Below, in pieces: positions 16,092 to 52,117 of a stretch of DNA of 64,000 nucleotides. Location: NCBI RefSeq assembly GCF_048403405.1, contig NZ_CP183129.1. One strand, written 5' to 3'. This DNA comes from Escherichia coli. Lineage in GTDB: Bacteria; Pseudomonadota; Gammaproteobacteria; Enterobacterales; Enterobacteriaceae. The notes below the pieces were generated by a model. It was not told the origin of the DNA. It did no database searches and was given only the letters and a program-made list of their open reading frames with translations. How positions within the stretch are numbered: position 1 is the stretch's first letter; each line of letters opens with the position of its first letter. A program made the position numbers and the translations under genes.

Positions 16092-18167
16092 TTAATTCAC
16101 ACCCAGCGCCTTATAAACCGCATCAACCGGGTCTGAGTAAAAACTCACCTGAAACTTGGTAAATAACTCTGCCGGAACCGTTGGAATATCCATAGCCGAG
16201 GACATCGGCAACAGAACCCGTTTTGCGCCGCTGTCGAAGGCGAGCTGTAAACTGGCGGCAAGATCCTGCACCGGGTTAATTACTCCACCAAGGGTCATAC
16301 TGCCCAACACCACCATCTGTTCCTGCACCGGCTTTGCCAGCAATATCGAACATAAAGCGATAAGCGCAGCAAGACTGGTTGCGGTGCTAGGGCCAGTATT
16401 ATGCAGTTCAACGACATGAAGGTGATATTCATGATCAGAGAATTTCGCTGCCGCGCTTACCCGATTCAAATTGCCTTTGAAGTAATCGAAACCGACGCGG
16501 ATAGCTTCTTTCGCGGAGGTATTTGAACCCAGGCCCGATACACTATGCTTACCATTACCGGCAGTCATCTGCGTTTCAAAACGATACAGCCCGGTCATAC
16601 CGCTTTCTGCCTGAGTGACCAAATGCACAACGCCCGGCTTTGGCATTCCGGCAGGAATTAGTTCGCTGCCGCCCTGTTCCGGTACGCTTACAAAAAACTC
16701 TTCCAGCGTTTCGTTATCGATGTAGCTAAAGTTCACATCGAAGAACTCCAGGCCGCCCAGTTTTTTAAGTTGCTCTTTCACTCGACGACGAACTTCCATC
16801 GCATAGGTCAGGCAGACTCGTACATCTTCTTTGCTGTACGCGCCATCGGGATGCATGAGTTTTAACAACCCCGACACTGTACGTCGAACAGCAATCACGT
16901 CACGCTGATTGAGGTTATTTCCCAGCTTGAAGAATTTATCAATTGCATCGGAGAAGCTACGTTTACGCATCTCGCGCATGTATTCAGCGAGATAATCCGT
17001 AATCAAACCATAGCGATTGGTGAAAAATTCCGGGCGCATCTTAGGAATTTCCCAACCAGGAATATAGGCATGGAAGCGGTCAAAAAATGCAGTATCAATC
17101 ATCGCATCCGGGAACGGTGCTAGCAGATGGCTGGTTTTGACCAGTGTATCTACGCTCTGATTGATGTTGCCAACAAACACCATGGAGGCTTTGCCTTCAA
17201 TGGAGTCCCGACCACGAGAGAATGAGCCTGATGCCATGTAATCCTTCATGATCTGCACGCCATCTTTGTCTTTGAAGGTGATCCCTGCCACTTCATCAAA
17301 CGCGACGACGTCCCACATTCCCACAAGACCAATCTGCCGGCTGGCCATGTTGTAAAACAAGTTCGCCACCGTGGTTTGCCCGCCAGATACCAGCAGGGAG
17401 TTAGGAGAGCACTCTTTATAAACATGACTCTTACCTGTACCACGTGGACCAAGCTCGCAGACGTTATAGTTGTTTTCCACAAAGGGAATCATGCGAGTAA
17501 TCAGATGCCACTTGGTACGCTGCTCAATATTTGCAGGTTCCATCCCGACCGAACGTAACAGCACATCAATCCACTGGTCGCGATCAAACTGCTTGCGGGC
17601 TTCAAATACCTCGTCCATATCCATATTTGGCATCTGGATCGGCTTCAGTGTGAACAGCGAGAAAGGAGACGTTTTTTGCCCCTCTTCATAAAAGTAGTTC
17701 ACGGTGATCATGCACCAGATGCCACCAGTCAGCAGTTTCTCGTTGTCTTTCACCATCTGCGACGGCACCAGGGCATCTTTAATGCCAAGGTTAGAGAGCT
17801 GGGCTTCGTAAACGTCTTTCTTCTGATTTAGCTTTACCGTGACCTTATCGATAATCTTGTAAGAACCACGCTCGCGAATTAGTGATTTCACTTTTTCTGC
17901 TTCATCCGGGCGGACGTAGTTATCAGAAAGAATACGCTTAACCGACTGTAGCCCCTGCTCGACAACCTCATCGTCATCGGAGGCACAGTACATACCGAGT
18001 AGATATTCCAGTACGTAAACCGGAACATTCGCCCCTTCTTTAAGTTGCTTAGTCAGATCCTTACGCACCACGCGACCGCGAAAGTGCTGATTCAACAATG
18101 AATCCAGGTCCTGAGCCAACACAGAGGCCGTTTCCATGTTACTGGCTGAGTTATCCTGCTGTTGCAT
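16092..18167 (-). CDS. brxL: BREX protein BrxL (Lon-like protease/AAA+ domain)
   Basis: 691 aa. Walker A GPRGTGKSH and a C-terminal Lon-protease-like region. It is the last gene of the canonical type 1 BREX order. Confidence 0.9.
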   Translation of the reverse strand: MQQQDNSASNMETASVLAQDLDSLLNQHFRGRVVRKDLTKQLKEGANVPVYVLEYLLGMYCASDDDEVVEQGLQSVKRILSDNYVRPDEAEKVKSLIRERGSYKIIDKVTVKLNQKKDVYEAQLSNLGIKDALVPSQMVKDNEKLLTGGIWCMITVNYFYEEGQKTSPFSLFTLKPIQMPNMDMDEVFEARKQFDRDQWIDVLLRSVGMEPANIEQRTKWHLITRMIPFVENNYNVCELGPRGTGKSHVYKECSPNSLLVSGGQTTVANLFYNMASRQIGLVGMWDVVAFDEVAGITFKDKDGVQIMKDYMASGSFSRGRDSIEGKASMVFVGNINQSVDTLVKTSHLLAPFPDAMIDTAFFDRFHAYIPGWEIPKMRPEFFTNRYGLITDYLAEYMREMRKRSFSDAIDKFFKLGNNLNQRDVIAVRRTVSGLLKLMHPDGAYSKEDVRVCLTYAMEVRRRVKEQLKKLGGLEFFDVNFSYIDNETLEEFFVSVPEQGGSELIPAGMPKPGVVHLVTQAESGMTGLYRFETQMTAGNGKHSVSGLGSNTSAKEAIRVGFDYFKGNLNRVSAAAKFSDHEYHLHVVELHNTGPSTATSLAALIALCSILLAKPVQEQMVVLGSMTLGGVINPVQDLAASLQLAFDSGAKRVLLPMSSAMDIPTVPAELFTKFQVSFYSDPVDAVYKALGVN

Positions 18168-18177
18168 AACGCCTCAC

Positions 18178-20775
18178 TTAAAAGAAGTCATCCTGAAATG
18201 CCAGGTCGATCGTGATCGGGTAGCGACCATACTCTGTTGCGCTGTCCGCATTCTCCAGGATAAGAACATACTTGTTTTTACGATTGAATGCCGTCCCCAT
18301 GAGTTTCATGGTTACATCGCGGGTGCGTTTACCCATATCTTCGTTATCACTGTCGAAGCATACTGTTTCCGTGCCGGAGACGACCTGGTTGTTTTCATCG
18401 ACGATAAAGATATTCAGCGTGCGCGGCTCATTTAAATCATTCACTGCCGAAGTCTGAATAAAACCAATTTTATCAATGCTGTTAACCAGTTTGATCACCT
18501 GATCCCGCGCAACGACGGGCACGGGCTGCCGCTGGGGTTGCTTCTCAGCCGCTTTCTTTTCAAGCGCGCGAATCTTCAACACAGGAACACACACTTCCTG
18601 CAGCATGGCTCCGCCATGAACGAAACGAGCACCCCCTACGAAGTGGAAACGCTGTACTCCTTTGGGTAACAGGAATTCACTTTCATCGCTTGCGCCTGCA
18701 GTATCAGCCAGTTTGCCGTGCCAGCAAAATTCACTTTCAGGCAGTTGATGGCCTACAATAAAACGCTTATTCGCTTCAATCGTGTCTTTGGCTTTACTTT
18801 CCAGCTTCGTTTTATCCTGCTCCACCAGCGCTTGTTGTTGGAACAGGAAGCCGTGATCGGCGGTAACAAAAATTCGGCTGGCATTAAATCGGCTACGCAG
18901 GCGTGAAACCAGATCTTTTAGCTCAGTGATTGCACTTCGGCAGGCCTCAAACGTTTTATCTTCCGTTGCAGCCTTATCACCCATGGCATCTATAGTGTCG
19001 TGCCAGATATAAACTACGGAAGCGTTGCGGATTTGCTCGTTCACTTCCTGGTTATTGGCGTTCTGCAAGTCCTTTGCTTTCAGCGCTACACCATTCACCT
19101 TCGCAAGAATAGCGGCTCTTTTTTCAAACCCGGAAGTGGACATCCCATCGGCGTATACTACACCAGAATTATCAGGAAGATAGCTCAACGACTCATGAGG
19201 CAACAGTGCGGCCATGCCCAGTTGGGTATAGCTTGGGAGCACTCCGGTCTGGGAGCGCAGCTCTGCACTGAAGTGCTTCTCATAGTTGATATGCCTGCCC
19301 AGCTCTTCCGCCACTTCGTAGCGCAATGCATCCGAGATCACGACAAAAACACGTTTGACCTGCGAGGTGTCAAACTGACGTTTAACATTCTCTTTATAGA
19401 AATTGCGCTGCAGGGGTATGCCGCTAAACTGCCAGGCCTGCATACGGTTTTCCGCTTCCAGCAGTTTGTTCCAGCCGCGACTTAGTTCAGTCAGATACCA
19501 ATTGCTGTATAACTCTTCGATGAATTTATCCAGTTCATGCAGGATCATCGCCCCTTTGCTGTGCACTGGTGCAGCATATTCATTGAACAAACGATAGGTC
19601 TGATCGAAGCGATAAATTTCGTCACAATAGGCCTTCCAGAACGCACCTGTATCGGGGAAATTAAACCCGTCGGTGTAACGGTTACGCAAATTCAGCAAGC
19701 GTTCTGCCTGACGAATAGCATTCCAGATAGAAAGATACTCTGGGCGGGTTTGGCTCCAGTATTTCGCACTGCGCTCTGAAACCAACGCTTTAAACGCATC
19801 TCTGTCCAGAGTGGTGCTCTCTTCCTGCAACTGTGTCACCAGACCACGGATAATAAGTTGCTCAATAGCCTCGAAGGTTTCACATTTTGCCAGTGTATAT
19901 GGTGAGCTGTAGTTGTAGTGTTCTTTTGGCTGGAGCGTCTGCTGCAAATCCTCTGCACAGTAATCGTATTCTACTTTATAGCGACGATCGTTGCGCCACG
20001 CCCCCATAAAGGCCAGTGACGAGGCCCGACCAGCCGCGGTAGCCAGCACATTTTTACTCAACCAGTCACGATGTGCTTCATCACCCTGCGCCCAGAGATC
20101 GGTACAGAACAGTTTCAGAAGCAGATTTTCCATTGAAGGAGATTCAGACTGGTATCCCAACTCAAGGCGAAGAATTTCCCAAAGTACCTCATCCAGGCCA
20201 AGCTTCGTCAGTACGGCGAAAGTGTTCTCGAGTGCGCTATCATCTTGCTGCCGTGCTGCGACAAACTGCTGAACCAAAGCAAATAGTATTTCTTTGGTTT
20301 CGAAGGTACTGGCCCCGACCACCACCGCCAGCATTTTCTTATCGAGAGAGTTTTCCGTTTCGCGCTCGGTGACCCATCCCTTCAGGATCTGAGTTCGCTT
20401 AACGGTAAAGAAGGCTTTGCGAAGCTGAATATGTTCGCGTAAACCGAGTTGCGGGATACCCAGAGAATTCAGGGTGATCGCCGCATAATCAGCGTGGAAT
20501 TCGGTACTATAGAGGCGGATATCCAGCAACCAGTCCTGCTCGCGAGCAGGAACCTCACAGGTGAAATAGAGTAAAAATTTCTGCTCAGGCTCGTCGATTT
20601 CGAGTCGTTTTTTTGTTGCGAGCACAGAAACGCCACGCATATCCAGCAGCGTGACATTGTCGAGATCCAGCTCATTAATTGAATCAGTGAAGCGTTGTTC
20701 CGGGTCGTGCCAGAAGACGATACGGTTGTCGGTAAACTTCTGACGAAGCCCTGATTCCAGTTCTTTAAATTGCAT
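18178..20775 (-). CDS. pglZ: BREX protein PglZ (alkaline-phosphatase-superfamily)
   Basis: 865 aa. The N-terminus (FTDNRIVFWHDPEQRF) and the central PglZ-type region (VVISDALRYE...TADHGF) are visible. It sits between the embedded pair and brxL. Confidence 0.9.
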   Translation of the reverse strand: MQFKELESGLRQKFTDNRIVFWHDPEQRFTDSINELDLDNVTLLDMRGVSVLATKKRLEIDEPEQKFLLYFTCEVPAREQDWLLDIRLYSTEFHADYAAITLNSLGIPQLGLREHIQLRKAFFTVKRTQILKGWVTERETENSLDKKMLAVVVGASTFETKEILFALVQQFVAARQQDDSALENTFAVLTKLGLDEVLWEILRLELGYQSESPSMENLLLKLFCTDLWAQGDEAHRDWLSKNVLATAAGRASSLAFMGAWRNDRRYKVEYDYCAEDLQQTLQPKEHYNYSSPYTLAKCETFEAIEQLIIRGLVTQLQEESTTLDRDAFKALVSERSAKYWSQTRPEYLSIWNAIRQAERLLNLRNRYTDGFNFPDTGAFWKAYCDEIYRFDQTYRLFNEYAAPVHSKGAMILHELDKFIEELYSNWYLTELSRGWNKLLEAENRMQAWQFSGIPLQRNFYKENVKRQFDTSQVKRVFVVISDALRYEVAEELGRHINYEKHFSAELRSQTGVLPSYTQLGMAALLPHESLSYLPDNSGVVYADGMSTSGFEKRAAILAKVNGVALKAKDLQNANNQEVNEQIRNASVVYIWHDTIDAMGDKAATEDKTFEACRSAITELKDLVSRLRSRFNASRIFVTADHGFLFQQQALVEQDKTKLESKAKDTIEANKRFIVGHQLPESEFCWHGKLADTAGASDESEFLLPKGVQRFHFVGGARFVHGGAMLQEVCVPVLKIRALEKKAAEKQPQRQPVPVVARDQVIKLVNSIDKIGFIQTSAVNDLNEPRTLNIFIVDENNQVVSGTETVCFDSDNEDMGKRTRDVTMKLMGTAFNRKNKYVLILENADSATEYGRYPITIDLAFQDDFF

Positions 20776-21344
20776 TATTGATTCTCAAACCATTCGACCA
20801 GTTCATGAGCGCTAGGGCAAGCAGGGTGTCTGGCAGAACTCTGAATATCAAAACCGTGATGCGTTACCATTCTCCTGGCAAATGCGGTTTTAGAACTTCC
20901 CGGTCCCTGTTTTCCTAGCTCGCGTGAAATTACTTTTAAACGATCCCATGGCATTTCAGTTGTAGCTTCAGGTAACTCTTCATTAAATGTGTCTACTTTA
21001 AGCCATTTTTTCATTGCCTCTGAATCGGCAAGAAACCAAGCCTCAACTGCTTTGACTGCGATAAACGAGATGTCGACATCTTGATGGGCAATTCGGGCCC
21101 GTACATCAGCAACAGATGCCGCATCTTCCAGGTCGGTCAGAATACAGATCCGTTCAGCACCTACATTTCTGAGCCTAGCAACGAAATTATCAACATACTT
21201 CGGTAACAGGTTACCACCACCTTTGGCATCAATAACGGGAGTTACCAATTCAAAATTATTCGTGCGCAGAAATGCAATGAACGCTGGTGAATTCACGATG
21301 ATTGACTCAGTATCACCTTCAACGATAAAACCTATTTTTACCAT
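20775..21344 (-). CDS. Small TOPRIM-like protein (DUF4276/DUF4435/RloB class), partner of the upstream ATPase
   Basis: 189 aa. Candidate TOPRIM residues are visible: IGFIVEGDTE (conserved Glu) and ICILTDLED (DxD-like). The start overlaps the ATPase stop (ATGGTAA) and the stop overlaps the pglZ start (TAATG). Confidence 0.6.
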   Translation of the reverse strand: MVKIGFIVEGDTESIIVNSPAFIAFLRTNNFELVTPVIDAKGGGNLLPKYVDNFVARLRNVGAERICILTDLEDAASVADVRARIAHQDVDISFIAVKAVEAWFLADSEAMKKWLKVDTFNEELPEATTEMPWDRLKVISRELGKQGPGSSKTAFARRMVTHHGFDIQSSARHPACPSAHELVEWFENQ

Positions 21345-22459
21345 GGCAAACCGCCATCAAACATATTCATCAGCCACGCGGTATCCAGTGGGATTTCCTT
21401 TTTATCAACCCCCGCATCTGAAGCATGCATCAGCTGAGTTTTCCCCTCTTTTTTACTAACAAACCACAGTTCGTCTGGTTCCAGATTGCGAACAATAGAT
21501 TCACTATGGGTAGTAATAACAATTGGATGATTCAAAGAGGCATTTTCACGCATCAATTGCACAAGTTCCCCAATGGCTTTTGGGTGAATACCGCGTTCAG
21601 GCTCTTCAATAATGGTCATCCCCGTTTGCTGTGCTCGACTCAAGATGGCCGTCATAATACAAAGCGTGAAGATGGTGCCGTCAGAGATAAGATGGGCAGG
21701 AAAGCGGGCACGAGTTCCCTGTTCTTTAAAGGTCAATACCGTTGAGCCATCCAATTTTTGTTTCTCGGTCGATACATTTTCCATCCCCGGAACGATGAGT
21801 TCCATCCACTCCAGTATTTGCTCTTTAAATTCGCTATTCGATTCGAGAGCAGCAAGCACAGAAGCAATGTTTCGACCATGACTGTCCAGAAATGTCGAGT
21901 CAGTTTTGGCGCTATCGGGCTCTTTAGCACGTAACGGATCGATGCGAAAAACAACAATATTGGTCAAAAAAGCGTACAGTTCACTTTTCCCCAGTAGCAT
22001 TAGTGCCGTCATATCTGACGAGTAGTTAGGGATTAAAGTCGCAGGGATTTCATCACTATCGCTCAGGCGAATCATAAGAGTATCAGGGTGCTTACGATCA
22101 ATATAAATATCTCCATCAATGACCAACTTTTCAGTGATTGTTGGTTTTTTATCCATGTTTTTGATCGTCAAGTCATAGGTAAACTGTTTTCCTCCCAGCT
22201 CAATTTGAAGGTGCAGTGAAGCCGTAGTCCGATTTTCCTTACGCAGCTTGTAGCAATGAATCTGCTGAAAACCGCCAAAATCACGGATTGCTTGTGTCGC
22301 CCCGGTTTTCACTACGGCACCAAAAAAAGCCAATGCATCGGTAATGTTACTTTTGCCCGCACCATTGGCTCCAGCAAAGGTGATAAATGGTGGGCTTTCC
22401 ACAAGGGAAAGCTCCGCGATGCTCTTGTAGCCTTTAATAATCAGGGGATGTTGATCCAT
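21338..22459 (-). CDS. ABC-type (AAA_15/AAA_21-like, OLD/RloA/AriA-class) ATPase
   Basis: 373 aa. Walker A GANGAGKSN, an SDG signature-like motif, Walker B MTIIEEPERGIHP and His-loop VITTHS. The start overlaps the pglX stop (TAATG). Confidence 0.8.
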   Translation of the reverse strand: MDQHPLIIKGYKSIAELSLVESPPFITFAGANGAGKSNITDALAFFGAVVKTGATQAIRDFGGFQQIHCYKLRKENRTTASLHLQIELGGKQFTYDLTIKNMDKKPTITEKLVIDGDIYIDRKHPDTLMIRLSDSDEIPATLIPNYSSDMTALMLLGKSELYAFLTNIVVFRIDPLRAKEPDSAKTDSTFLDSHGRNIASVLAALESNSEFKEQILEWMELIVPGMENVSTEKQKLDGSTVLTFKEQGTRARFPAHLISDGTIFTLCIMTAILSRAQQTGMTIIEEPERGIHPKAIGELVQLMRENASLNHPIVITTHSESIVRNLEPDELWFVSKKEGKTQLMHASDAGVDKKEIPLDTAWLMNMFDGGLPW

Positions 22460-25400
22460 TATGCCTCCTGTGGCGCACTGCCGGTGATCGCCTTGACATC
22501 CGCCAGCAGATCGCCAAATTTGCCGTAGTTAACCTTAACGCCGTCATCCAGATCAATAGTGATACGTCTATCAGCATAGTGACGCAAGCGATCGTCAAAA
22601 TTGCGCAGCTCGTTGAATTTTTTAGTCAACCCATCCAGCTCTTTTTTCAGGCGTGTGGTGGCAGCGCCCGATTCTGCATTTTTAAGCTGATCGTTAACAA
22701 GATCGATATTTCCCTGGTAGCGTGCCAGCAGCGGAACTACATATTCGGTACGCATACGTGACAATGTGCCTTCATTATAACGGTGCAGATACACCAGGCA
22801 CTCAAACGCCTTCTCTTTACCTGAGCTGAATAGCCAGTAAATTGGGCGCTTCTTGTACATCTTCATATGATCTTTCCAGAACTGGGTGGAAAGATAGCGA
22901 CGGATGGTATCCAGCGAAGACTCGCCTTTTTTCGGCTTGATTGCGTACAAGCAGAGGCTTTCGGCGATGAAATCGAGGTTTTCTTGTAAATGTTCTTCGC
23001 CCCAGACTGTGCGAACGAACTCTTTAACGCGGGAGGTAACATCGTCATCGAACCAGTCAGAATCCATTAATGGCAGGATACCATCTTCATCGGCAGGGAA
23101 GGTTTGGTAGGCGCCTTCATCTACTAATTCAGAAAAGCCTTTGTTACCTTCGTGGGCGTAGACCAAGCCTTCGCGATCAAGGGAATAGCGGCCCATCATG
23201 CAGCCAATAGCCAGGCTAAGTGAGTTTATAACCTGAATCGCCTTAAATTGGTTATATTCATCTTTTGAAATTGAGCTTAATGACTGGAAAACATTATTTT
23301 CCAATGTTATTTCTGCCAAGGCAAGATTGTTTTCGTTTAAAATATTGCATTTTTCATAAAATATTTTGTTATTATCACATTCTAGCTCATGTGTTTTGAT
23401 TAACTTTTGATAAAAAACTTCAGTCTGGTTTTTTAATATGTTTACTAGGCTGCCGTTTTGAAACGCATCCTGATTGAAGGAAAACTGATAACTATTTTCC
23501 TGCTGACTCCAATTTTCTTTAGCCAGAGAAATTAGTTCAGCAGTGTTCAAGGATAGGCTCTCAATCATTTTCTCATCAAAAAATGCTGGTAATTTACTTA
23601 TATCCCCCGGTTGATAATTTAATGTTGGAGAGATAGCCTTTATTAAAGAGATAATAATATCACTATTAATAAATGCTAACACAGGCAGGTAAAGGTCTTC
23701 ATTATTAACAAATAACGAAGACCCTGCATTGTCAAATAATGAGGACTCTGAGACTCTTGCAGATGTCTTGCTTGAGGAAAGAGCGTTCCATGTAATCCCT
23801 TTTTTAAATATAAAATCTAAATTATAGTTATGCGAACGTACCTTTCCTGATTTTTCATCGGTAAAATTTTGAATTTCCCGACCATCGTCGAACCAATTTA
23901 CGACATAATCAAGATTACCGTACCACTTTCTATATTCACCACCTTTCTGATAAGGGAACCATTTCAGACCGGATTTTTTAGCTTGAATACGATCAGTAAA
24001 ATCAAAACCGATATTCGCGAAATTAACTTCATGCCAAAAACGTAAAAAACGCTCATTATCCGCTGTTGCCATTCCAAGGCGTGTTGAGGCAATTTGAGAT
24101 ATTTTTTTATTATCAAATAAATTAACCTCACTTTCGCTGAGCCAATACGCAATCGGTGCACCGGGGATTTTTTGGAAGTCATCGGCAGCGGCAGTCTTTA
24201 AACGATCGTTTTTAACCGGAAATTCTTTTGGATATCCTTCATCATTGATATCGTCATTCTCAGTATAAGAGAATGCCCCTTGATAAGAAGGAATGTGAAC
24301 ATTTCTAAACACTGTTGCATTGGTACCAAAGGCAATTTTCATAACGCCATTGCCCATATGTACCATCGTCTCAATAGTGTATTTATCCAATATATTCGCA
24401 CGCATATTTTCATAGCTAGACAAAAACATCCATGATTGCATAGTCACCATTGAGTTGTACGCAGCATCTTTGAGCCAGGAAAAACCCCGCTCAATAAACA
24501 TCGCAAACAAATCTGACTTACTGTCCGGGAATTGTTTCTTAGCGAACTCTTTCAGTTCACCGTTCATCCCTTTCCCACCCATATACGGCGGGTTCGCCAC
24601 AACCGCATCGTAACGCTGCGCCAAAATCCACGCCTGCTGAATATACGGAATCAGCTCTGCTGCCGCTTCTTTCTGCGGGATATCACCCTCGACAGCCAGA
24701 CGATATAGTCCACCCAGGAATGTCTTCAGCGCCGTTTCATCTTCCTGCGGCACCTGAATCAGTGATCCCAGCGTTTTTGCACTAGTGAACAAAGCCAGAG
24801 TACGCATCAGTAGCTTATATTCCGCGCTGTCGGTATTGGCCAGTGACGTCCCTTGGGTAAACATATCTCCCATGCTGCCGCGTTGCGCCTGCTGATGAAA
24901 GTTCAGCTTGGTCCACAGTTCAGCGATATCCAGTTTACTTTCCTGCAGCGAAACGATATTCAGGCGAACGCCACGGCCCAGAATACGACGATCGTCCTGA
25001 CGGGCAAGCATCAGCATCGCAAAACCGGAAAGCTGCGCCGCACGGTCATCAATATCTAGGCCGAAAATATTGTTTTCCAGAATCAGCTGCGGAATGTCAC
25101 GGGTACGGTAGCCACGCTCTTCGTAAATGGCCTTCAGCACGTTATAGGCTTCGGTCAGGATATGCCCGGAGCCGCAGGCCGGGTCCAGCACCTTAATACT
25201 TTCTGGTTCAATGCTTGATGGGGTAATAGCCGCCAGCTGTGCCTGCACTTCCGGCGTTTGTTCCGCTGGCTCAATGTAGTACGGCATTTTGCCTTTCAGG
25301 CTGGAGTCCGGATAGGTTTGCAGCCACTGGCGGCCCACCGAGTTCTGCACCAGATACTGCACAATCCAGTTCGGAGTAAACAGCTGGGTAGCGGCAGGAA

Positions 25401-26112
25401 TATCTTCGCTCTTCACCACCTTGCCGATCACATCATCTTTTTTCTCGGAAATATAAAACTGATACAACCAGCCGATCACTTCGACCTGTTTCCAGTCTTC
25501 TTCAGGAATCGTGTCCACCAGCCCGCGCAGAATAGAGTCGGTGCGAGTCAGGTTATCCGGCAATACCAGTTCGATATCATCATTGACTGCTTCGAACAGG
25601 AAAGGCATAGCGCCGTGCAGCGCATGGCACTGTGCAAGCAATAGTTCACGGTACAGCTCTTCGTCACGATCGCCCGCCAGCTTCATCTCCACCAGGCGTG
25701 ATTTGTCCAGCCCAAGTGCATCAGCCACTTCCGGCACATGATCCAGAACCTCAAAACTCCCTTCCAGGGTCGGGTGAGACAGCATACGGAAACCGTGATC
25801 AAGATAGCCATGCAGCTCCATATAGCGAATAGCGCAAAAGCGGTTAAACCAGGTGTAAGCGATGTGCTCCACCAGCACGTCATAGCCCTGCTTTTCTGCA
25901 CGCTTGACCAGACGTTCACGGCGTGAAGCCAGTGATTTATCCAGCGAGAACTGACCATATCGCACACTGTCGCCAAGATCGGTTGCTTGCGCTATTTGCA
26001 GGTTGCCTTTTTTATCGGCGTCAATACCCAGCGTGGTCAGTTTTTGCATGACCGCATCGCGGAACTGTTTACGTGCCACCGGGGCGTATTTTTTGATATT
26101 TGACGTATTCAT
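22459..26112 (-). CDS. pglX: BREX N6-adenine DNA methyltransferase PglX
   Basis: 1217 aa. SAM-binding VLDPACGSGHIL and catalytic VVANPPYMG motifs are visible. Canonical position after brxC. Confidence 0.9.
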   Translation of the reverse strand: MNTSNIKKYAPVARKQFRDAVMQKLTTLGIDADKKGNLQIAQATDLGDSVRYGQFSLDKSLASRRERLVKRAEKQGYDVLVEHIAYTWFNRFCAIRYMELHGYLDHGFRMLSHPTLEGSFEVLDHVPEVADALGLDKSRLVEMKLAGDRDEELYRELLLAQCHALHGAMPFLFEAVNDDIELVLPDNLTRTDSILRGLVDTIPEEDWKQVEVIGWLYQFYISEKKDDVIGKVVKSEDIPAATQLFTPNWIVQYLVQNSVGRQWLQTYPDSSLKGKMPYYIEPAEQTPEVQAQLAAITPSSIEPESIKVLDPACGSGHILTEAYNVLKAIYEERGYRTRDIPQLILENNIFGLDIDDRAAQLSGFAMLMLARQDDRRILGRGVRLNIVSLQESKLDIAELWTKLNFHQQAQRGSMGDMFTQGTSLANTDSAEYKLLMRTLALFTSAKTLGSLIQVPQEDETALKTFLGGLYRLAVEGDIPQKEAAAELIPYIQQAWILAQRYDAVVANPPYMGGKGMNGELKEFAKKQFPDSKSDLFAMFIERGFSWLKDAAYNSMVTMQSWMFLSSYENMRANILDKYTIETMVHMGNGVMKIAFGTNATVFRNVHIPSYQGAFSYTENDDINDEGYPKEFPVKNDRLKTAAADDFQKIPGAPIAYWLSESEVNLFDNKKISQIASTRLGMATADNERFLRFWHEVNFANIGFDFTDRIQAKKSGLKWFPYQKGGEYRKWYGNLDYVVNWFDDGREIQNFTDEKSGKVRSHNYNLDFIFKKGITWNALSSSKTSARVSESSLFDNAGSSLFVNNEDLYLPVLAFINSDIIISLIKAISPTLNYQPGDISKLPAFFDEKMIESLSLNTAELISLAKENWSQQENSYQFSFNQDAFQNGSLVNILKNQTEVFYQKLIKTHELECDNNKIFYEKCNILNENNLALAEITLENNVFQSLSSISKDEYNQFKAIQVINSLSLAIGCMMGRYSLDREGLVYAHEGNKGFSELVDEGAYQTFPADEDGILPLMDSDWFDDDVTSRVKEFVRTVWGEEHLQENLDFIAESLCLYAIKPKKGESSLDTIRRYLSTQFWKDHMKMYKKRPIYWLFSSGKEKAFECLVYLHRYNEGTLSRMRTEYVVPLLARYQGNIDLVNDQLKNAESGAATTRLKKELDGLTKKFNELRNFDDRLRHYADRRITIDLDDGVKVNYGKFGDLLADVKAITGSAPQEA

Positions 26113-26127
26113 ATGAAGTCCTGAAAA

Positions 26128-26146
26128 GGGCAGACAATGTCTGCCC
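26128..26146 (-). promoter_or_regulatory. Stem-loop in the 48-nt brxC-pglX spacer
   Basis: gggcagac-aat-gtctgccc (8-bp stem). On the mRNA strand it is followed by UUUUCAGG and then the pglX start region. It could be a weak attenuator or an RNA-stability/processing element. Confidence 0.35.
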
Positions 26147-26160
26147 TGAAAATGGGGAAA

Positions 26161-29100
26161 TTACTGAAGCTGTACGCGTTCACCTGCGTTAATGGCATCC
26201 ATTAGCGTTTTACGGAGTTGTTCCAGCGCTTTGTCTACCTGTTCGGCGTTATCCAGCGTTGTCACACCCGCCGCTCGTTCCATCGTTTTACGCGTGTTTA
26301 CGTAGATGGTTTTTTTCAGCTTGGGTTCAGGCTTAACTACGGGGTCGATAATCCCAGGCTGAGGAGCAGGTTTTGGATCAGACACTTTCTTACGCTGATC
26401 CTCAACCCAGCCGTTCAGCCGTTCATTCGCTTTAAATTGTAGCGCTCGAACCTCAGCCTGTTCTTCCATAATCTGTGGGATCAGGCCGTTCTGCTCCACT
26501 TTCTTACGCGATTGTTGCATCGGGTGTAAAAGCGAGTGTTGCAAGTCAGCAGGGACGTGCATCTCCTGCATGCTTTGCTTAAGTTCATTGATATGACCAT
26601 CGATCTGTAGCAGCGCATGGCTTCGATATTCTTCGACCAGACGCTGGTTGATGGTTTCAACGGTTTCAATCAGCGGGATAATCCGATGCAGTTCTCCATA
26701 AGGTCGTGCCTTGCTGTAGATCCCTTCCAGTTCCTGTAACGCCTTTTGGGCCGTTTCGTCTTTATCCAGCGCGTTACGGTTAGCTTTAAAACTGCCATTC
26801 AACGCCATACTCAAGCGCTGCCAGGTAGCGTATTGGTTTTTGTAGAAGCTAACCAAATCGTCCCAGTCTTCCGAGAAATCTTTAAGATCGTCAGCCGCTG
26901 CGGTGATTTTTTCAATGACCGCGTATTCCTCTTTCTCGTTAAGGATCCCGTTCAGCAATACCAGACCTTCTTCTATCTCTTTACGGCCAGGGTTTTGTCC
27001 ACTCTCTGCACGAGTTTTAAAAACAGTCAACTCGCTATTCCAGCGGCCAAAGAGTTCGCGAATATGAGAGACCAACGACTGTTCTTCACGCTCGTTAAAC
27101 GGCTCTCCAGCAATCTCTGCCATCAGCTGCGCAGCTTTAGTCAACTGTGCTTCATCATGGCGACGAACTTTATGCAGACGCAAATCGCTGTAACGACGTG
27201 AATTATTAAACGCGTCCCACGCCTGCTTCAGTGCGATTTCACTGCCTTGCAGAGTGAAGCTGTATTTACCGCTGCGTGCCAGCCGAGCAACCAGCAATTT
27301 GACTTCATCTTCCGGCCAGCCAAACGGGCGACGGCCAAAAGTGGTGAGAATATCCCGCAGGTAAACTGGCTTATGAGTCTCAATACTCATGCTGATCCAG
27401 TTATCCACTTCACGCATCGCCTCTGGGTTGGATTCTTCCATACCCCCGAGATCGAGCTGGGTATCATTTTCTACTGTCAACAGCGCGTGAGTTTCACGAT
27501 TTACGTCTCCGGTACTAAGACGCAGCAATTTTAGTTTAGAGAAACTGTTCTCGATAACGTAACCGCAGGCTGCATCCACGATAGCTAACGGCGAAGAGGA
27601 TTTCTTATCCAGCCGTTCGCCCAGCGCCCAGACATCAGCTTGAGCCAGCAAGCCTTCAATCTGCGCCTTAAGCGTTTTTTCACGCATACTATTTTCACGG
27701 CCTTTTTCCGCCAACAGCGTTGCCTGTTCCGGGCGCTGGCCGCTTTGCTTGCTGAGGAAAGCTTTGGTCTGAGCGTACATGGTCAGGTCTTGCCAGGTAC
27801 GAGCCTCATCAGGCAGGCAAATTAAGATGCAGTCTTTACTGTCCGTCATCAGCAGACTATTAGAATGCGCACCCTTATAGCTCTCGTAGTTCGAGTCCAG
27901 TGGCGTGAGCACTTTAACCACCAGATCGTTAAGATTCGCACCATCCAGCGGATGTCCGTTACAAAAACGACTGATATCAAAATCCTGCTTATTGGCCGGA
28001 TAGCGATATCTTTTGTTTTTCAGGATCTCTTCGAAAATGATGGTTGAGAGTTGCTTATTGATGGTGGTGAATTCCACGTCAATATTGCGGATTTCGTTTT
28101 CAATCTCTTTTTCTTCGTTAGTGAGAAAAACAAATTTGTCATCAATACGCGAGATCAGCATCTCAGCCTGCAGACGATTAAGGCTGGCTTCAATCTGTCG
28201 ACGGAGTTCCACTTTATCAGTATCAATACGCTCAATAGAGAGCGTGACGAGATTGTCGAGAGTACTTTTCAGCACATCGACGTAGCGGATCAGGAACAGT
28301 GTCTTTAGTAGTTTGCCGTCAAATTCAGTCAGTGACGGAGACTGGCAGGCCTGAATAATAGTGCGGCTAACTGCAGGTTCCAGGAAGCTTTCAATCGCTG
28401 AATAGAAGCGCCAGAACGGGACCAGACTATCCAGACCATCTGCGGAGATTTGCACAGCAGCCGACTGGAAGGCATCTAGCAAAGAGCGCTCCCCCATTGC
28501 CAGCTGCTTACCTGCGGCCCCTTTAGTACGGATTGATTCAAAGACTTTTTGCAGGATCTGGTAATGCCACGGTACAAACGGATAGTTATCCACGAACTCG
28601 CGGCTGTTTGTATAGGCTCGCAGAGTAGCGGTCGTTGTCGTGTCAAACGCCAACTGGTTACGCAGAATATCGCCTTTTTCCTGCCAGATAGCTTCCAGCG
28701 CCGGTATTGCCGCATCGGTTTTTACCAGCAGACGTTTCTGGATAACTTCTGAAGTATTCGAGCTGGAGAGTTGTAAGCGCGTTGAGAAACGTCCCTGAAT
28801 CTTGGAGAAGTCCTGACCATCACGACTGCTCATACCGCCAATAGCAGCATTAATGTCAGCCTGGGAGGTAACTATCACCCATGCCCGCCCACCACAAATA
28901 ACGCCCAAGTTTTCGGTGATAGTTTGCAGCTTGAGCATCATCTGAGCATCTTTACCAATGAACTGACCAACTTCATCGACCATAAACAGGATATTGCGAT
29001 TACCATGGCTGTCGAGCCACTCTTTCACCCACGTACAGAAATTTTTGATATCCAATGGGAAGTTCTTATCAAGTTGCTCGATCCATTGACGAGAAGACTC

Positions 29101-29775
29101 TTCACTCTGGCCTGTAGCAATACTCAGTGCCTGAGCCATCTGATCGTTTATCATCAGATAAACATCACGTTCGTCTTCCCAGCGAGACCCTGTAATGTCC
29201 GCGAAGGCTGCCCTAAAGGTATCAAATTGTCCACGCTTATCGAGCTCACGTTCCAGATGTGCAATATGTGGGAAGTCGCCACAATAACCAGCTAGTTCGT
29301 TAAAGACTTTCAGAAAGACTTTGAGTATGGCATCAACGCCATCTTCAACATTCGCACGTGAGTCAATATTGAATAATATGACATCGGTCGGATGTTGTAC
29401 CGATTTCCGAATATCAGCCAATAGCAGTGCATCATCAATTTTCTCTTCAAAGAAGGAAAGTGCATTACGAGTGACACCATTATGGCTTACTTCGCGGTTC
29501 GCCAGTAGATAGGATAAGATCTTAATGAAGTGTGATTTACCCGAACCAAAGAAGCCTGAAACCCAGACGCCTATTTTGTCAGCAAGCTGTAATCTGCCAG
29601 GGCCAGTAGCAGGGGCATATACTTCAAAGAACTGACGCAGGTGACCATCCAGCTCTCTGGTAATGACATACTCATCCAGTTCTATCCAGGCGCTTTCGTC
29701 GTCGGTCTGCTCGGCTTTAACCACGCCGTTAATATTACGTTTTAGCTGTTTCTCAAAAATTTGTTCAATATTCAT
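26161..29775 (-). CDS. brxC: BREX ATPase BrxC/PglY
   Basis: 1204 aa. P-loop GFFGSGKSHFIK near the N-terminus and Walker B-like ILFMVDEVGQ. Canonical position. Confidence 0.9.
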   Translation of the reverse strand: MNIEQIFEKQLKRNINGVVKAEQTDDESAWIELDEYVITRELDGHLRQFFEVYAPATGPGRLQLADKIGVWVSGFFGSGKSHFIKILSYLLANREVSHNGVTRNALSFFEEKIDDALLLADIRKSVQHPTDVILFNIDSRANVEDGVDAILKVFLKVFNELAGYCGDFPHIAHLERELDKRGQFDTFRAAFADITGSRWEDERDVYLMINDQMAQALSIATGQSEESSRQWIEQLDKNFPLDIKNFCTWVKEWLDSHGNRNILFMVDEVGQFIGKDAQMMLKLQTITENLGVICGGRAWVIVTSQADINAAIGGMSSRDGQDFSKIQGRFSTRLQLSSSNTSEVIQKRLLVKTDAAIPALEAIWQEKGDILRNQLAFDTTTTATLRAYTNSREFVDNYPFVPWHYQILQKVFESIRTKGAAGKQLAMGERSLLDAFQSAAVQISADGLDSLVPFWRFYSAIESFLEPAVSRTIIQACQSPSLTEFDGKLLKTLFLIRYVDVLKSTLDNLVTLSIERIDTDKVELRRQIEASLNRLQAEMLISRIDDKFVFLTNEEKEIENEIRNIDVEFTTINKQLSTIIFEEILKNKRYRYPANKQDFDISRFCNGHPLDGANLNDLVVKVLTPLDSNYESYKGAHSNSLLMTDSKDCILICLPDEARTWQDLTMYAQTKAFLSKQSGQRPEQATLLAEKGRENSMREKTLKAQIEGLLAQADVWALGERLDKKSSSPLAIVDAACGYVIENSFSKLKLLRLSTGDVNRETHALLTVENDTQLDLGGMEESNPEAMREVDNWISMSIETHKPVYLRDILTTFGRRPFGWPEDEVKLLVARLARSGKYSFTLQGSEIALKQAWDAFNNSRRYSDLRLHKVRRHDEAQLTKAAQLMAEIAGEPFNEREEQSLVSHIRELFGRWNSELTVFKTRAESGQNPGRKEIEEGLVLLNGILNEKEEYAVIEKITAAADDLKDFSEDWDDLVSFYKNQYATWQRLSMALNGSFKANRNALDKDETAQKALQELEGIYSKARPYGELHRIIPLIETVETINQRLVEEYRSHALLQIDGHINELKQSMQEMHVPADLQHSLLHPMQQSRKKVEQNGLIPQIMEEQAEVRALQFKANERLNGWVEDQRKKVSDPKPAPQPGIIDPVVKPEPKLKKTIYVNTRKTMERAAGVTTLDNAEQVDKALEQLRKTLMDAINAGERVQLQ

Positions 29776-29787
29776 TGCTGTCGTCTT

Positions 29788-30390
29788 TTAACGAGGAGTC
29801 AAAGTCGCCGCCGGTCTGGTTTCTGGTACCAGTCTGAAGGCGCGGTAATAGTTACGAGAATTAATGCCAGCGAGTGGAGAAAGATCGTATCCGCTATAGG
29901 TGCCTGGATAGAACATCAGCAATGGTGTAAATCCCATCACGTCCTGAAGTGCGCTCATTAGCTCATGACCACGAACCAACGGCCAGGCGTTACCAAGTCC
30001 CGTCAGAATGACAAATTGCTGCGCAGGAAGATCGACCGTGCGTGCAATATATTCCGCGATTTTTTTCTGGCTTAGCGGGGCAGCCAGATGCTTTTTCAGT
30101 GTCTCAAGGCCAAGCTCAGGCTCTCGTTGGCAGATACGTTCAAAGAGCTTACGTTCTTCCAACATATCGATGATAATCTGGAAGATATTTAGCGTTTTAT
30201 AGGTGTACTTTTTATCCAGTTTTTTGAATAAAAAGTGCAAGTACTCGCGGACCTGAAGCTCTTGTTTTGCCGGATAATCAAAGATCCAGAAGCCAATCTC
30301 ATTGCCGGAACCTTGGTTTTTCAAAAAACGGTCGTCGCCGATACGTTCTTCTAACTGTTTTAATCGGTATTCAAGGATCGGGTCATTCAT
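29788..30390 (-). CDS. brxB: BREX protein BrxB (DUF1788)
   Basis: 200 aa. Size and position between brxA and brxC fit. The start overlaps the brxA stop (4 nt). Confidence 0.8.
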   Translation of the reverse strand: MNDPILEYRLKQLEERIGDDRFLKNQGSGNEIGFWIFDYPAKQELQVREYLHFLFKKLDKKYTYKTLNIFQIIIDMLEERKLFERICQREPELGLETLKKHLAAPLSQKKIAEYIARTVDLPAQQFVILTGLGNAWPLVRGHELMSALQDVMGFTPLLMFYPGTYSGYDLSPLAGINSRNYYRAFRLVPETRPAATLTPR

Positions 30391-31007
30391 GCGTTACCCT
30401 CCAGAATAGGGAGCAGTTCGGCTTTGTTTAAACGATGCAAGGCCGCTGCAACAACTGGTAGCAGGAAAACGTTTTGTAAATTGCGGCGGCGTGGGCTATC
30501 CAGGTAACCAGCTTCTGCGAGAGCCTTAATAAGATTGTTACCCATCTTTTGGATCGATGAATCAGAAAAAGCTGCCAGTTCCGGGTGTAAACGGAGATTC
30601 TCATCCACAAACTCACTCCAACAATTTATACCAAGCTTTTCTTTAAACTGCTGACGAGCTGGATTTACAACTTCAGCAATAAACGTCGCAACAACTGGAG
30701 ACTGGATCATCAACGCAACCAACAACATTTGCAGACGCTCGCTTTCACTGCCATCAGCAATCAGTTGCCAGCACTCCCGATCCAGGGTCATCAATCGCAG
30801 CCTTAAGGTTCGGGCATAACGATTTGCCGTACTCGTGGAGGACGCCTGAAGAATATTTTCATTGATTATTTGCTGCTGCCAGGTTGTTTCATCTGGTTCA
30901 GAGAGCAACAGCTCAGCAATGGTTCGGCTCTCACGAACCATCAACGAACCACCCAGCAGATCGCCAATCCAGCGTTTGTCATTTTTTGTCATGGTATTTA
31001 TCATCAA
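30387..31007 (-). CDS. brxA: BREX protein BrxA (DUF1819)
   Basis: 206-aa ORF, first gene of the operon. The true start may be the internal MTKNDKRW (30990), and no strong RBS is seen at either candidate. Confidence 0.75.
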   Translation of the reverse strand: MMINTMTKNDKRWIGDLLGGSLMVRESRTIAELLLSEPDETTWQQQIINENILQASSTSTANRYARTLRLRLMTLDRECWQLIADGSESERLQMLLVALMIQSPVVATFIAEVVNPARQQFKEKLGINCWSEFVDENLRLHPELAAFSDSSIQKMGNNLIKALAEAGYLDSPRRRNLQNVFLLPVVAAALHRLNKAELLPILEGNA

Positions 31008-31574: not shown

Positions 31575-32845
31575 TCACCTTCTCAGCGGATTGTTAACCT
31601 TTGCATATTCAAACGGACTGATACCCTTCTCTCTGTTCGCATCCAGAAAATCCGCCCACCACTGTAACATCAGCTTGCGCTCATCCAGATGTTCCGCTTT
31701 ATGGATATACGCCGCCCTCACCGAATTGCGTTCCATATGGCTCATCTGCCTTTCCACCGCATCCTTCGACCATAGCCCTGACTCAATTAACGAACTACAG
31801 ACCATTGTGCGGAAGCCGTGGCCGCAAACTTCAACCTTAGTGTCATAACCCATCACCCGTAGTGCACTGTTTACCGTGTTCTCGCTCATGGGCTTACGCG
31901 GATCATGATCGCCAATAAAAATCAGCTCATGTTCGCCACAGAACTGTTTTATCTGCTTCAGGGTCGCTAGCGCCTGCTTTGAAAGCGGCACTAGATGAGG
32001 TGTACGCATCTTTGATCCTCGCTGAGAATGTTTCACGCCGGGAATAGGCTCTCGCTCAGGCGGGATGGTCCACATCGACGTGTCGAAATCTATCTCCGAC
32101 CAGCGAGCAAAACGCAGCTCACTGGATCGAATAAAGATAAGCAGAGTAAGTTCAGTTGCCCAGCGGGTTAGTGGCCTGCCGGTGTATTCATCGATTTTCT
32201 GGAGTAATTCCGGGATACGCTTTAACTCCAGCGCCGGACGATGCTGTCGATTACTGGAAGCAACCGCCCCCGCCATCTCTTGCGCCGGATTGTAATCAAT
32301 TAACCCGCTTTGCACTGCATAACGCATGATGGCCGTAGTGCGCTGTTGAAGGCGGGAAGCCACTTCAAGACGTCCGGACTTCTCCACGGCTTTAATAGGA
32401 ATTAACAGATCGCGGGTGCCTAGTTCAGCAATGTTGCGAGTACCAATTGCCGGGAAGATATTCTCCTCCAAGCTCTTTTTAGACGATTAGCATGATATTC
32501 CGACCATTTTTGGTTGGTCACGAGCCACTATTTGGCAACCTTCTCGAAAGTAATAATCTCTTTCGCCTGCTCTTCTTTCACAGCACGTTTATGCTCACGA
32601 GGATCGATACCAGCAGCTACCAGCTTTCTGGCCTCTTCCCTTTTCTTCCGCGCATCCGCCAGCGAAACATCCGGGTAAACGCCGAACGCCATCAAATGTT
32701 GTTTACCACCAGAACGGAAACGAAATCACCAATACTTTGAACCGCCAGGTTTTACAAGTAAAGACATGCCGTCGCCGTCAACAAGTGAATACTCTTTCTC
32801 CTCTGACTTCACAGAACGAACTTTAGTATCCGTTAGGGCAATAAT
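31575..32845 (-). pseudogene. P4-type (tRNA-associated) tyrosine integrase, inactivated
   Basis: The N-terminus is ALTDTKVRSVKSEEKEYSLVDGDGMSLLVKPGGSKYW. An in-frame TGA follows at 32726-32728, then FRFRSGGKQHLMAFGVYPDVSLADARKKREEARKLVAAGIDP..., then an in-frame TAG at 32528-32530. A frameshift occurs in the T5/A5 run at 32476-32480. The C-terminal 298 aa are intact and carry tyrosine-recombinase motifs (HGFR...RAAYIH). The expected ATG position reads ATT. Confidence 0.85.
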
Positions 32846-33127: not shown

Positions 33128-33322
33128 ACTGAAGAGGTATGCGGAAAACGTTGTGGATTATACCTGTCGCACGCCACCATGCAAGCGCCAGCTTGCTCGC
33201 ACCTCGCTAAGTGCTGAAATTTTCAGCATTGCATACAGCGATGTGTAACCTTTGTCACACTCCAGGCACCCCGCCCTGCCATGCTCTACACTTCCCAGAC
33301 AACACCAGAGAAGGACCAAAAA

Positions 33323-52060: not shown

Positions 52061-52076
52061 TTGACATCGCTATAAA

Positions 52077-52109: not shown

Positions 52110-52117
52110 ATATTATT

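What the first reader, a model, noticed from the sequence alone, without database searches (positions are those of the whole stretch)
23200..24450. Sharp AT-rich mosaic block inside pglX, downstream of the methyltransferase core: probable exchanged specificity region
Several 60-nt stretches between about 23.2 and 24.4 kb, counted by eye, are about 32-40% GC. Immediately flanking pglX sequence (22.5-23.1 kb and 24.5-26.1 kb) is about 50% GC.

The block corresponds to roughly residues 555-970, directly after the NPPY catalytic motif. In BREX methyltransferases the region C-terminal to the catalytic domain has been implicated in motif recognition.

The compositional discontinuity suggests a cassette-like swap that would change the BREX target motif relative to related loci.
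Basis: partly seen in the sequence, partly recalled or inferred. Interest (0 to 1): 0.5.

Follow-up and report, generated by a model that had tools for sequence, protein, structure and literature searches.

The report
Swapped specificity cassette in BREX methyltransferase
The AT-rich stretch inside pglX is real and encodes the DNA-reading part of the BREX anti-phage methyltransferase; related E. coli and Salmonella-like loci exchange this part by recombination, a clear case of a known kind of variation.

Summary
pglX (22459-26112, minus strand, 1217 aa) contains a block at 23218-24459 (residues 552-965) with 34.6% GC, against 51.2% in the rest of the gene. GC3 is 0.32 against 0.55-0.58, and 0 of 300 codon shuffles reach the observed signal.

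By alignment to solved BrxX/PglX structures, the block covers three parts: the last ~95 residues of the methyltransferase domain (module A, with the loop that reads base 6), the target recognition domain (TRD), and the helical spacer.

Near-identical BREX loci (99-100% elsewhere) fall to ~40% identity only here. Each of 13 distinct alleles among 15 E. coli sequences has its own TRD.

The window's TRD, spacer and proximal CTD (24182-22766) is 98.9% identical to a metagenome locus whose backbone is ~92-95% identical. Module A is 100% identical to a different E. coli allele. The junction falls within 10 nt in the conserved DDF|QKIPG hinge.

The cassette-swap reading is therefore supported. Two caveats apply. 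AT-richness is shared by all alleles and by 34 of 37 distant pglX genes, so it marks the variable module, not a recent event. The swapped tract and the AT-rich block only partly coincide.

The change of motif is inferred, not shown. This is known biology and a new allele.

The parts
22459..26112 (-). pglX (brxX), the BREX type 1 N6-adenine DNA methyltransferase and specificity factor, 1217 aa
   Evidence: ORF. Pfam hits to Eco57I, N6_Mtase and MmeI_Mtase. PADLOC PglX. Full-length match, E = 0, to solved BrxX (8zek, 9ewz) and PglX (8c45). 100% identical to the annotated pglX of E. coli TUM14771.
23218..24459 (-). AT-rich hypervariable block, residues 552-965. GC 0.346, GC3 0.316.
   Evidence: Breakpoint fit and permutation test. 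Mean pairwise amino-acid identity among 15 E. coli alleles is 0.20-0.65 here, against 0.75-1.0 in the flanks.
24583..24594 (-). NPPY catalytic motif IV (residues 507-510), in the conserved part upstream of the block
   Evidence: Translation.
24183..24510 (-). Module A: the C-terminal sub-part of the methyltransferase domain (residues 535-644). The variable sequence begins after the conserved SKSDLFAMF.
   Evidence: Alignment of alleles. At least 4 sequence families cross backbone lineages. 317 of 317 nt identical to L001, but 54.5% to L061.
24325..24357 (-). Loop MGNGVMKIAFG (residues 586-596), equivalent to the E. coli HS BrxX loop 587-601 that reads base pair 6. It is 4 residues shorter here, and the E598/V599 equivalents are deleted.
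   Evidence: Alignment mapping. The role of the loop in HS BrxX is taken from PMC11842806.
24142..24183 (-). Conserved hinge motif DDFQKIPGAPIAYW (residues 644-657), the junction between module A and the TRD. It is the left crossover point of the exchanged tract (between 24183 and 24174).
   Evidence: Informative-site runs. The same junction is seen against L016 at CDS nt 1931. Split pglX genes in L059/L060 are divided at the same place.
23575..24171 (-). Target recognition domain (residues 648-846), equivalent to HS BrxX 651-837
   Evidence: Mapping to HS BrxX. The AF2 model has pLDDT 80-97 here and best matches PglX 8c45 and BrxX 9ewz. Every distinct E. coli allele has a different sequence, at 38-56% nt identity.
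23218..23574 (-). Helical spacer after the TRD (residues 847-965), the most AT-rich part (GC 0.311)
   Evidence: Long helices in the model. Spacer helices 850-960 are described in Salmonella PglX (PMC11341690). 32-49% nt identity among alleles.
22766..24182 (-). Tract shared with L061 at 98.9% (1401 of 1417 nt): TRD, spacer and the first ~150 residues of the C-terminal domain. This is the segment actually exchanged in this allele.
   Evidence: Fisher exact test against the flanks (92.5% and 95.2%) gives p = 1e-18.
22462..23217 (-). Conserved C-terminal domain (residues 966-1217). The metal-site residues D1008, D1010, D1023 and Y1124 are conserved.
26161..31007 (-). brxA (30387-31007), brxB (29788-30390) and brxC (26161-29775), upstream in the same operon
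   Evidence: Pfam hits to BrxA, BrxB and BrxC domains.
16092..22459 (-). Downstream genes: an embedded ATPase (21338-22459) plus a DUF4276 gene (20775-21344), which together match the PADLOC HEC-01A/B pair; pglZ (18178-20775); brxL (16092-18167)

Best explanation
The AT-rich block is the specificity-determining middle of PglX. It comprises the C-terminal sub-part of the methyltransferase domain with the loop that reads the sixth base (module A), the TRD that reads bases 1-4, and the helical spacer.

In the population this middle exists as many unrelated cassettes set in a conserved gene. Homologous recombination in the conserved sequences on either side moves cassettes between BREX loci. One of those conserved sequences is the short DFxKIPGxPIAYW hinge between module A and the TRD.

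The window's allele is such a chimera. It has an E. coli ws5-3-like backbone and module A, joined at the hinge to a TRD, spacer and proximal CTD tract otherwise found in a Salmonella-like locus.

Shown here: the composition step, the hypervariability, the chimeric structure and its breakpoints, and the fold.

Inferred here: that the new cassette gives BREX a different 6-bp motif. A different motif would change both which host sites are methylated and which phages are excluded.

The AT-richness is a standing property of these cassettes in all lineages, not a scar of this particular event.
For: Composition.

Domain identity: there is a full-length alignment to solved BrxX/PglX. HS domain limits and DNA-contact residues map into the block (with PMC11842806 and PMC11341690). 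The AF2 model of residues 530-990 best matches 8c45 and 9ewz, at E of 1e-33 to 1e-28.

Divergence island: L001 and L002 are 99-100% identical across the ~15-kb locus but ~40% identical inside the block. The 15 E. coli sequences comprise 13 distinct alleles. They fall into two backbone lineages, yet every distinct allele has a unique TRD and spacer at 32-56% nt identity.

Same cassette, different backbone: L061 shares 24182-22766 at 1401 of 1417 nt (98.9%). Its brxC/pglX 5' region is 92.5% identical, pglZ 95.2% and module A 54.5%, giving p = 1e-18. The S. enterica contig L016 is 98.7% identical from CDS nt 1931 onward, on an 87% backbone with an HS-type module A.

Breakpoints: with the window as child, there are 163 consecutive L001-type sites (24751-24183). 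About 430 L061-type sites follow (24174 to ~22798), and L001-type sites return from ~22489.

Independent recombinant: pX14-3-NDM (L004) is window-like up to residue ~405-419 and L001-like after that, with 68 then 595 informative sites.

Specificity residues differ from HS BrxX at K681R, D684M, R751Y, Q784N and G785A, and the base-6 loop carries a 4-residue deletion.
Against: No methylation or phage-exclusion data exist for this allele, so the motif change is an inference. The TRD alignment to HS BrxX is only ~30-35% identical, so the mapping of individual contact residues may be off by a few positions. The direction and order of the exchanges cannot be determined, meaning which allele is the recombinant. 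L061 is an unidentified metagenome contig, and the Salmonella contig covers only part of the tract. The GC-dip survey of distant loci used fixed offsets from the TRD match rather than individually annotated domain limits.
Confidence: 0.85

Rival explanations
1. The AT-rich block marks a recent import from a low-GC donor that is specific to this allele. This is classical compositional evidence of horizontal transfer that has not yet ameliorated.
For: GC3 is 0.32 against ~0.57 in the flanks. The closest TRD relatives outside the E. coli/Salmonella group are only 46-59% identical and come from very diverse phyla.
Against: All 15 E. coli alleles have the dip at the same place (mean GC3 0.24-0.37). 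So do E. fergusonii and Acinetobacter pglX and 34 of 37 distant pglX genes. In those distant genes the depth of the dip scales with host GC. Module A is equally AT-rich but was not part of the last exchange. The dip is therefore a family-wide standing feature.
Confidence: 0.1
2. The block diverged in place by rapid point mutation under diversifying selection, without any cassette exchange.
For: TRDs are known to evolve fast. Identity within the block is uniformly low among most alleles.
Against: The boundaries are abrupt, going from 100% to ~45% within about 10 nt. The same cassette occurs at 98.9% in a 92% backbone. Module A and the TRD assort independently. L004 is a clean two-parent recombinant.
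Confidence: 0.04
3. The variation is programmed. A site-specific invertase would switch the middle of pglX between stored cassettes, as in Lacticaseibacillus rhamnosus.
For: PglX is strongly enriched among targets of programmed inversions, and it is the middle part of the protein that is switched (PMC9881135).
Against: The 64-kb window contains no second pglX fragment and no repeat of pglX DNA (tblastn and blastn). The only recombinase nearby is the frameshifted island integrase next to tRNA-Leu. The eight E. coli genomes with this allele are 100% identical.
Confidence: 0.01
4. The block is a foreign element inserted into pglX, such as an insertion sequence, an intein or an embedded gene, or it serves as an internal regulatory region.
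For: BREX loci do take up foreign genes: the HEC-01 pair lies between pglX and pglZ here, and a DRT gene splits pglX in L059. All seven promoter-like sites found in 22.0-26.5 kb lie in the block.
Against: The reading frame is continuous and aligns collinearly with solved PglX structures across the block. The number of promoter-like sites equals the shuffled expectation, 7 against 7.3.
Confidence: 0.01

Closest known systems
E. coli HS BrxX (PDB 9ewz, 8zek; motif GGTAAG) and Salmonella D23580/LT2 PglX (PDB 8c45; motif GATCAG)
   Same: The architecture is the same and collinear: NTD, gamma-class methyltransferase domain with NPPY, TRD, helical spacer, and CTD with conserved metal-site residues. 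The operon context is the same. Like the Salmonella system, this locus sits in the tRNA-Leu island with an extra gene pair between pglX and pglZ. [quoted passage not shown]
   Different: The TRD and spacer are only ~30-35% identical to either protein. Four of the five positions aligned to the HS TRD residues that read bases directly differ. Module A belongs to another family, with a base-6 loop 4 residues shorter. The motif is unknown.
TRD exchange in Type I HsdS subunits and in MmeI-family Type IIL/IIG enzymes
   Same: Hypervariable DNA-reading domains are set between conserved segments that serve as recombination substrates, and new specificities arise by domain reassortment. PglX is homologous to the MmeI family in its methyltransferase domain and TRD, as stated in PMC11842806 and PMC11341690.
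   Different: Here the TRD is fused to the methyltransferase, there is one TRD rather than two, and the system restricts without a known nuclease step. A second variable sub-module lies inside the methyltransferase domain itself.
Programmed-inversion (shufflon-like) pglX loci, e.g. Lacticaseibacillus rhamnosus GG and Brevibacterium casei (PMC9881135)
   Same: The same middle part of PglX is the unit of variation, with constant N- and C-termini.
   Different: This locus has no spare cassettes, no inverted repeats and no invertase. Variation is between strains through homologous recombination, not within a clone.
E. fergusonii pEFER PglX (GCTAAT) and Acinetobacter sp. NEB394 PglX (GTAGAT)
   Same: Both show the same GC dip over the variable middle. 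They share one module A family (70% identical, against 52-60% for their backbones), and both read T at position 6. This supports module A being a specificity sub-module.
   Different: The window's module A is only 22-23% identical to theirs and belongs to a third family whose base preference is unknown.

Membership tests
BREX type 1 PglX/BrxX methyltransferase | Gamma-class N6-adenine methyltransferase motifs: motif I (GxG) and motif IV (NPPY) | tested here: met
   DPACGSG at about residues 309-315 and NPPY at 507-510. Pfam hits to Eco57I, N6_Mtase and MmeI_Mtase.
BREX type 1 PglX/BrxX methyltransferase | Encoded in a brxA-brxB-brxC-pglX-pglZ-brxL cluster | tested here: met
   All six genes were identified by Pfam, in that order on the minus strand.
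BREX type 1 PglX/BrxX methyltransferase | Full-length collinear similarity to solved BrxX/PglX, including the BREX-specific NTD and a CTD with metal-site residues | tested here: met
   phmmer E = 0 over residues 1-1215 to 8zek, 9ewz and 8c45. D1008, D1010, D1023 and Y1124 are conserved.
BREX type 1 PglX/BrxX methyltransferase | Methylates the fifth adenine of a 6-bp non-palindromic motif and is required for phage exclusion | not testable with these tools
   This needs a methylome and plaque assays.
Exchangeable specificity (TRD) cassette | A hypervariable segment bounded by conserved sequence in otherwise near-identical loci | tested here: met
Exchangeable specificity (TRD) cassette | The same cassette in different backbones, and different cassettes in the same backbone (phylogenetic incongruence with defined breakpoints) | tested here: met
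   L061 and L016 against the window, and L001 and L004 against the window.
Exchangeable specificity (TRD) cassette | The segment folds as the DNA-reading domain and contains the base-contacting positions | tested here: met
   AF2 model with Foldseek against 8c45 and 9ewz. HS contact residues map into residues 586-596 and 678-832. The residue-level mapping is approximate.
Exchangeable specificity (TRD) cassette | Different cassettes confer different recognition motifs | not testable with these tools
   This is known for HS, Salmonella, E. fergusonii and Acinetobacter from the literature. It is not known for this allele.
Programmed-inversion pglX (shufflon type) | A spare partial pglX copy in inverted orientation, together with an adjacent invertase | tested here: not met
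   No second pglX-like sequence in the 64-kb window. The only recombinase is the frameshifted island integrase.

The most novel reading that the evidence does not exclude
PglX specificity may be assembled from two cassettes that are exchanged independently. The first is module A, a sub-part of the methyltransferase domain whose loop reads base 6. The second is the TRD with its spacer, which reads bases 1-4. They would recombine at the conserved DFxKIPGxPIAYW hinge.

Module A occurs in a few old families that cross genera and track the sixth base. The long-loop family occurs in HS and Salmonella, which read G. The LEYSGF-DGATVPIC family occurs in E. fergusonii and Acinetobacter, which read T. 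The window carries a third family whose base preference is unknown.

Under this reading, the window and L061 form a natural pair with the same TRD but different module A. Their motifs should differ only at position 6.

The same hinge is where pglX is split into two genes in some marine loci. This suggests that PglX is in effect a fused M + S pair.
Probability: 0.45. Interest if true: 0.5.

Novelty: new member of a known kind. Interest (0 to 1): 0.3.

Why it matters
BREX distinguishes self from phage DNA by a single 6-bp motif read by PglX. Which cassette a strain carries therefore decides which phages and plasmids it excludes. Natural chimeras with base-pair-level junctions show where PglX tolerates domain swaps. 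Published loop grafts between the HS and E. fergusonii proteins lost anti-phage defence (PMC11842806), so these junctions could guide engineering of BREX specificity. The window and L061 share a TRD but differ in module A, which offers a ready-made test of how base 6 is read. For genome annotation, the result warns that a GC dip inside pglX marks the variable module and is not a sign of an insertion or of recent foreign origin.

Tried and rejected
(1) I searched for this TRD in PLSDB plasmids by DNA. Only module A matched: 98.7% in pX14-3-NDM and ~64-69% in Acinetobacter plasmids. No plasmid carries the TRD.

(2) A scan of 185,579 species-representative genomes found nothing above 50% amino-acid identity to the TRD. 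The donor lineage therefore remains unknown.

(3) The search for homologous proteins with the block returned only partial or half-length PglX entries of 722 aa or fewer. That was useful for finding the Salmonella fragment and the split genes, but not for collecting full-length alleles.

(4) A look-up of the context of the Marinobacter C-half protein P0025 found no record.

(5) The promoter/terminator scan of pglX gave no excess of promoter-like sites over shuffles.

(6) I hypothesised that the window's short base-6 loop resembles the E. fergusonii loop, which reads T. This was rejected: E. fergusonii and Acinetobacter belong to a different module A family, only 22-23% identical to the window's.

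(7) I searched the window for spare pglX cassettes or repeats and found none.

(8) I did not attempt to predict the actual motif. At ~30% TRD identity to the one DNA-bound structure, a prediction would not be reliable.

Full report
**1. Observation**

pglX is the 1217-codon ORF at 22459-26112 on the minus strand. It lies in a complete BREX type 1 cluster:
- brxA 30387-31007
- brxB 29788-30390
- brxC 26161-29775
- pglX 22459-26112
- an embedded ATPase/DUF4276 pair, 21338-22459 and 20775-21344
- pglZ 18178-20775
- brxL 16092-18167

A 300-nt sliding window gives 31-39% GC from about 23.1 to 24.5 kb, against 46-57% on either side within the same gene. A two-breakpoint likelihood fit places the block at 23218-24459, residues 552-965, with GC 0.346 against 0.512. 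None of 300 codon-order shuffles approaches the observed likelihood gain, 43.5 against a null maximum of 11.5.

GC3 falls from 0.55-0.58 to 0.32 and GC1 also falls. This is therefore a nucleotide-composition shift, not merely a shift in amino-acid content.

**2. What the block encodes**

The protein aligns end to end (E = 0) with the solved E. coli HS BrxX (8zek, 9ewz) and Salmonella PglX (8c45). I transferred the published HS domain limits through an alignment of alleles. Those limits are NTD 1-210, methyltransferase domain 211-650, TRD 651-837 and CTD from 838 (PMC11842806). In Salmonella PglX the TRD is 662-849 and the spacer helices are 850-960 (PMC11341690).

On this mapping the AT-rich block contains three parts:
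- **Module A**, residues ~535-644: the last part of the methyltransferase domain.
- **The TRD**, residues 648-846.
- **The helical spacer**, residues 847-965.

The conserved CTD, with its metal-site residues intact, starts at AIGCMMGRYSLD.

An AlphaFold2 model of residues 530-990 has mean pLDDT 75.5, and 80-97 over the TRD. It best matches 8c45 and 9ewz (E of 1e-33 to 1e-28), followed by CamA, M.BseCI and M.TaqI.

In HS BrxX the TRD reads bases 1-4 and a loop of the methyltransferase domain (587-601) reads base pair 6. That loop lies in module A. In the window it is MGNGVMKIAFG, four residues shorter, and it lacks the E598/V599 equivalents.

**3. Comparison with related loci**

The window is E. 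coli. It is 100% identical to TUM14771 and seven other complete genomes. Of 5426 complete E. coli genomes, 350 have a pglX match. Only those eight carry this block, and four more share only its first 318 nt.

Across the ~15-kb BREX locus, L001 (ws5-3 chromosome) and L002 (plasmid pPSS-08-1_1) are 99-100% identical to the window. The exception is inside pglX, where identity drops to ~40%.

I compared 15 E. coli pglX sequences, which comprise 13 distinct alleles. The backbones form two lineages:
- a window-like lineage carrying the embedded gene pair, 88-99% nt identical within the lineage;
- an HS-like lineage, ~76-84% identical to the first.

Every distinct allele nevertheless has its own TRD and spacer, at 32-56% nt identity, which is close to noise.

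All alleles are AT-rich over the same columns, with mean GC3 of 0.24-0.37. E. fergusonii and Acinetobacter NEB394 pglX show the same dip. So does the TRD region in 34 of 37 pglX genes from many phyla (mean -0.07, up to -0.17 in high-GC hosts, about 0 in low-GC hosts, which used approximate offsets). The composition step is thus a family-wide mark of the variable module.

**4. Direct evidence of exchange**

- **Same cassette in another backbone (L061).** This metagenome contig has the same locus architecture. It is 92.5% identical to the window in brxC and the pglX 5' part, and 95.2% in pglZ. From 24182 to 22766 it is 1401 of 1417 nt identical (98.9%; Fisher p = 1e-18), while its module A is of the HS type (54.5%).
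- **Same cassette in Salmonella (L016).** This S. enterica contig shows the same pattern: an 87% backbone, an HS-type module A, then 98.7% identity from CDS nt 1931 to the end of the contig.
- **Breakpoints.** Taking the window as the child of L001-like and L061-like parents, there are 163 consecutive L001-type informative sites (24751-24183). About 430 L061-type sites follow (24174 to ~22798), and L001-type sites return from ~22489. The left crossover therefore lies within 10 nt, in the codons for DDF|QKIPG. The right crossover lies in the conserved CTD.
- **An independent recombinant (L004).** Plasmid pX14-3-NDM is window-like up to residue ~405-419 and L001-like thereafter.
- **No programmed switching.** No spare pglX fragment, repeat or invertase exists in the window. 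The variation is therefore allelic, not programmed.

**5. Two sub-modules**

Module A falls into at least four families that cross the backbone lineages. The window's module A is 100% identical to that of L001 and L004, and 75-78% identical to those of L008 and L010 in the HS-like lineage.

Module A families may track the sixth base:
- E. fergusonii (GCTAAT) and Acinetobacter NEB394 (GTAGAT) share one family. Their module A is 70% identical, although their backbones are only 52-60% identical.
- HS (GGTAAG) carries the long-loop family. Salmonella (GATCAG) is reported to have a very similar loop (PMC11842806).
- The window carries a third family, whose base preference is unknown.

This agrees with, and extends, the published role of the loop, but it rests on only four systems.

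The same hinge is where pglX is split into two genes in the marine loci L059 and L060. There the N-half corresponds to window residues 1-614 and the C-half to 641-1216.

**6. Comparison with what is known, and verdict**

Several points are already published:
- PglX is the BREX specificity factor.
- Point changes in the TRD alter the motif.
- The middle of PglX is the unit of programmed variation in some Firmicutes (PMC11341690, PMC11842806, PMC9881135, PMC12707154).

What this window adds is modest:
- a new TRD allele of unknown motif;
- a clean natural chimera with mapped junctions;
- evidence that the variable region is two independently assorting modules;
- the observation that the GC dip is general.

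Its reasoning from composition alone would not have been sufficient, and the motif change remains to be shown experimentally.

Noticed in passing
L059 5017-11794 (and L060), marine metagenome contigs: pglX is split into a 645-aa N-half (NTD plus methyltransferase domain) and a 597-aa C-half (TRD plus CTD). The split falls at the hinge where the window's cassette junction lies. A 1015-aa reverse-transcriptase/nitrilase defence gene (PADLOC RT_UG5-nitrilase, E = 5e-297) is inserted between the halves, and the stop and start codons overlap. The C-half protein is recorded in 54 blocks of the collection, so the arrangement is common. Many other ~580-600-aa C-half PglX proteins exist, and PADLOC has separate models for the two halves.
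   Followed up: partly
window 20775-22459 (minus strand): An AAA_21 ATPase and a DUF4276 gene, which match the PADLOC HEC-01A/B pair, are embedded between pglX and pglZ. The slot is itself variable. In L003 it holds an unrelated ATPase pair (~30-40% identity), in L061 the ATPase is only 60-85% identical, in L006 the second gene is shortened, and HS-like loci lack the pair altogether.
   Followed up: partly
window 24772-26600 (pglX 5' half and brxC 3' end): Short alternating runs of L001-type and L061-type informative sites form a fine-scale mosaic. There are also local identity dips to 85-91% between otherwise 99% identical loci, for example 24681-25124, 26319-26468 and 27369-27518. This suggests many small recombination patches beyond the main cassette swap.
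   Followed up: no
window ~31576-32843 and ~33044-33128: The BREX island sits next to a tRNA-Leu gene. Its P4-type integrase is annotated as frameshifted with an internal stop in the identical E. coli TUM14771 record, whereas it is intact in L001 and L002. An IS3 pseudogene follows brxL.
   Followed up: no
window 51795-53954: This is the only other stretch of the window as AT-rich as the pglX block. It contains a 555-aa ORF (52118-53785, minus strand; GC 0.32, GC3 0.29) with no Pfam match, lying between an ornithine carbamoyltransferase gene and a DUF386 gene.
   Followed up: partly
L009 3001-6667 (E. coli SC422): pglX is annotated as frameshifted in this strain and in similar records. Some natural BREX loci therefore have an inactivated specificity gene.
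   Followed up: no
L141 and L142 (E. fergusonii plasmid; Acinetobacter sp. NEB394 pBspH3): These two systems both read T at motif position 6. Their module A sequences are 70% identical although the rest of the proteins are only 52-60% identical, and their TRDs are 35% identical.
   Followed up: partly
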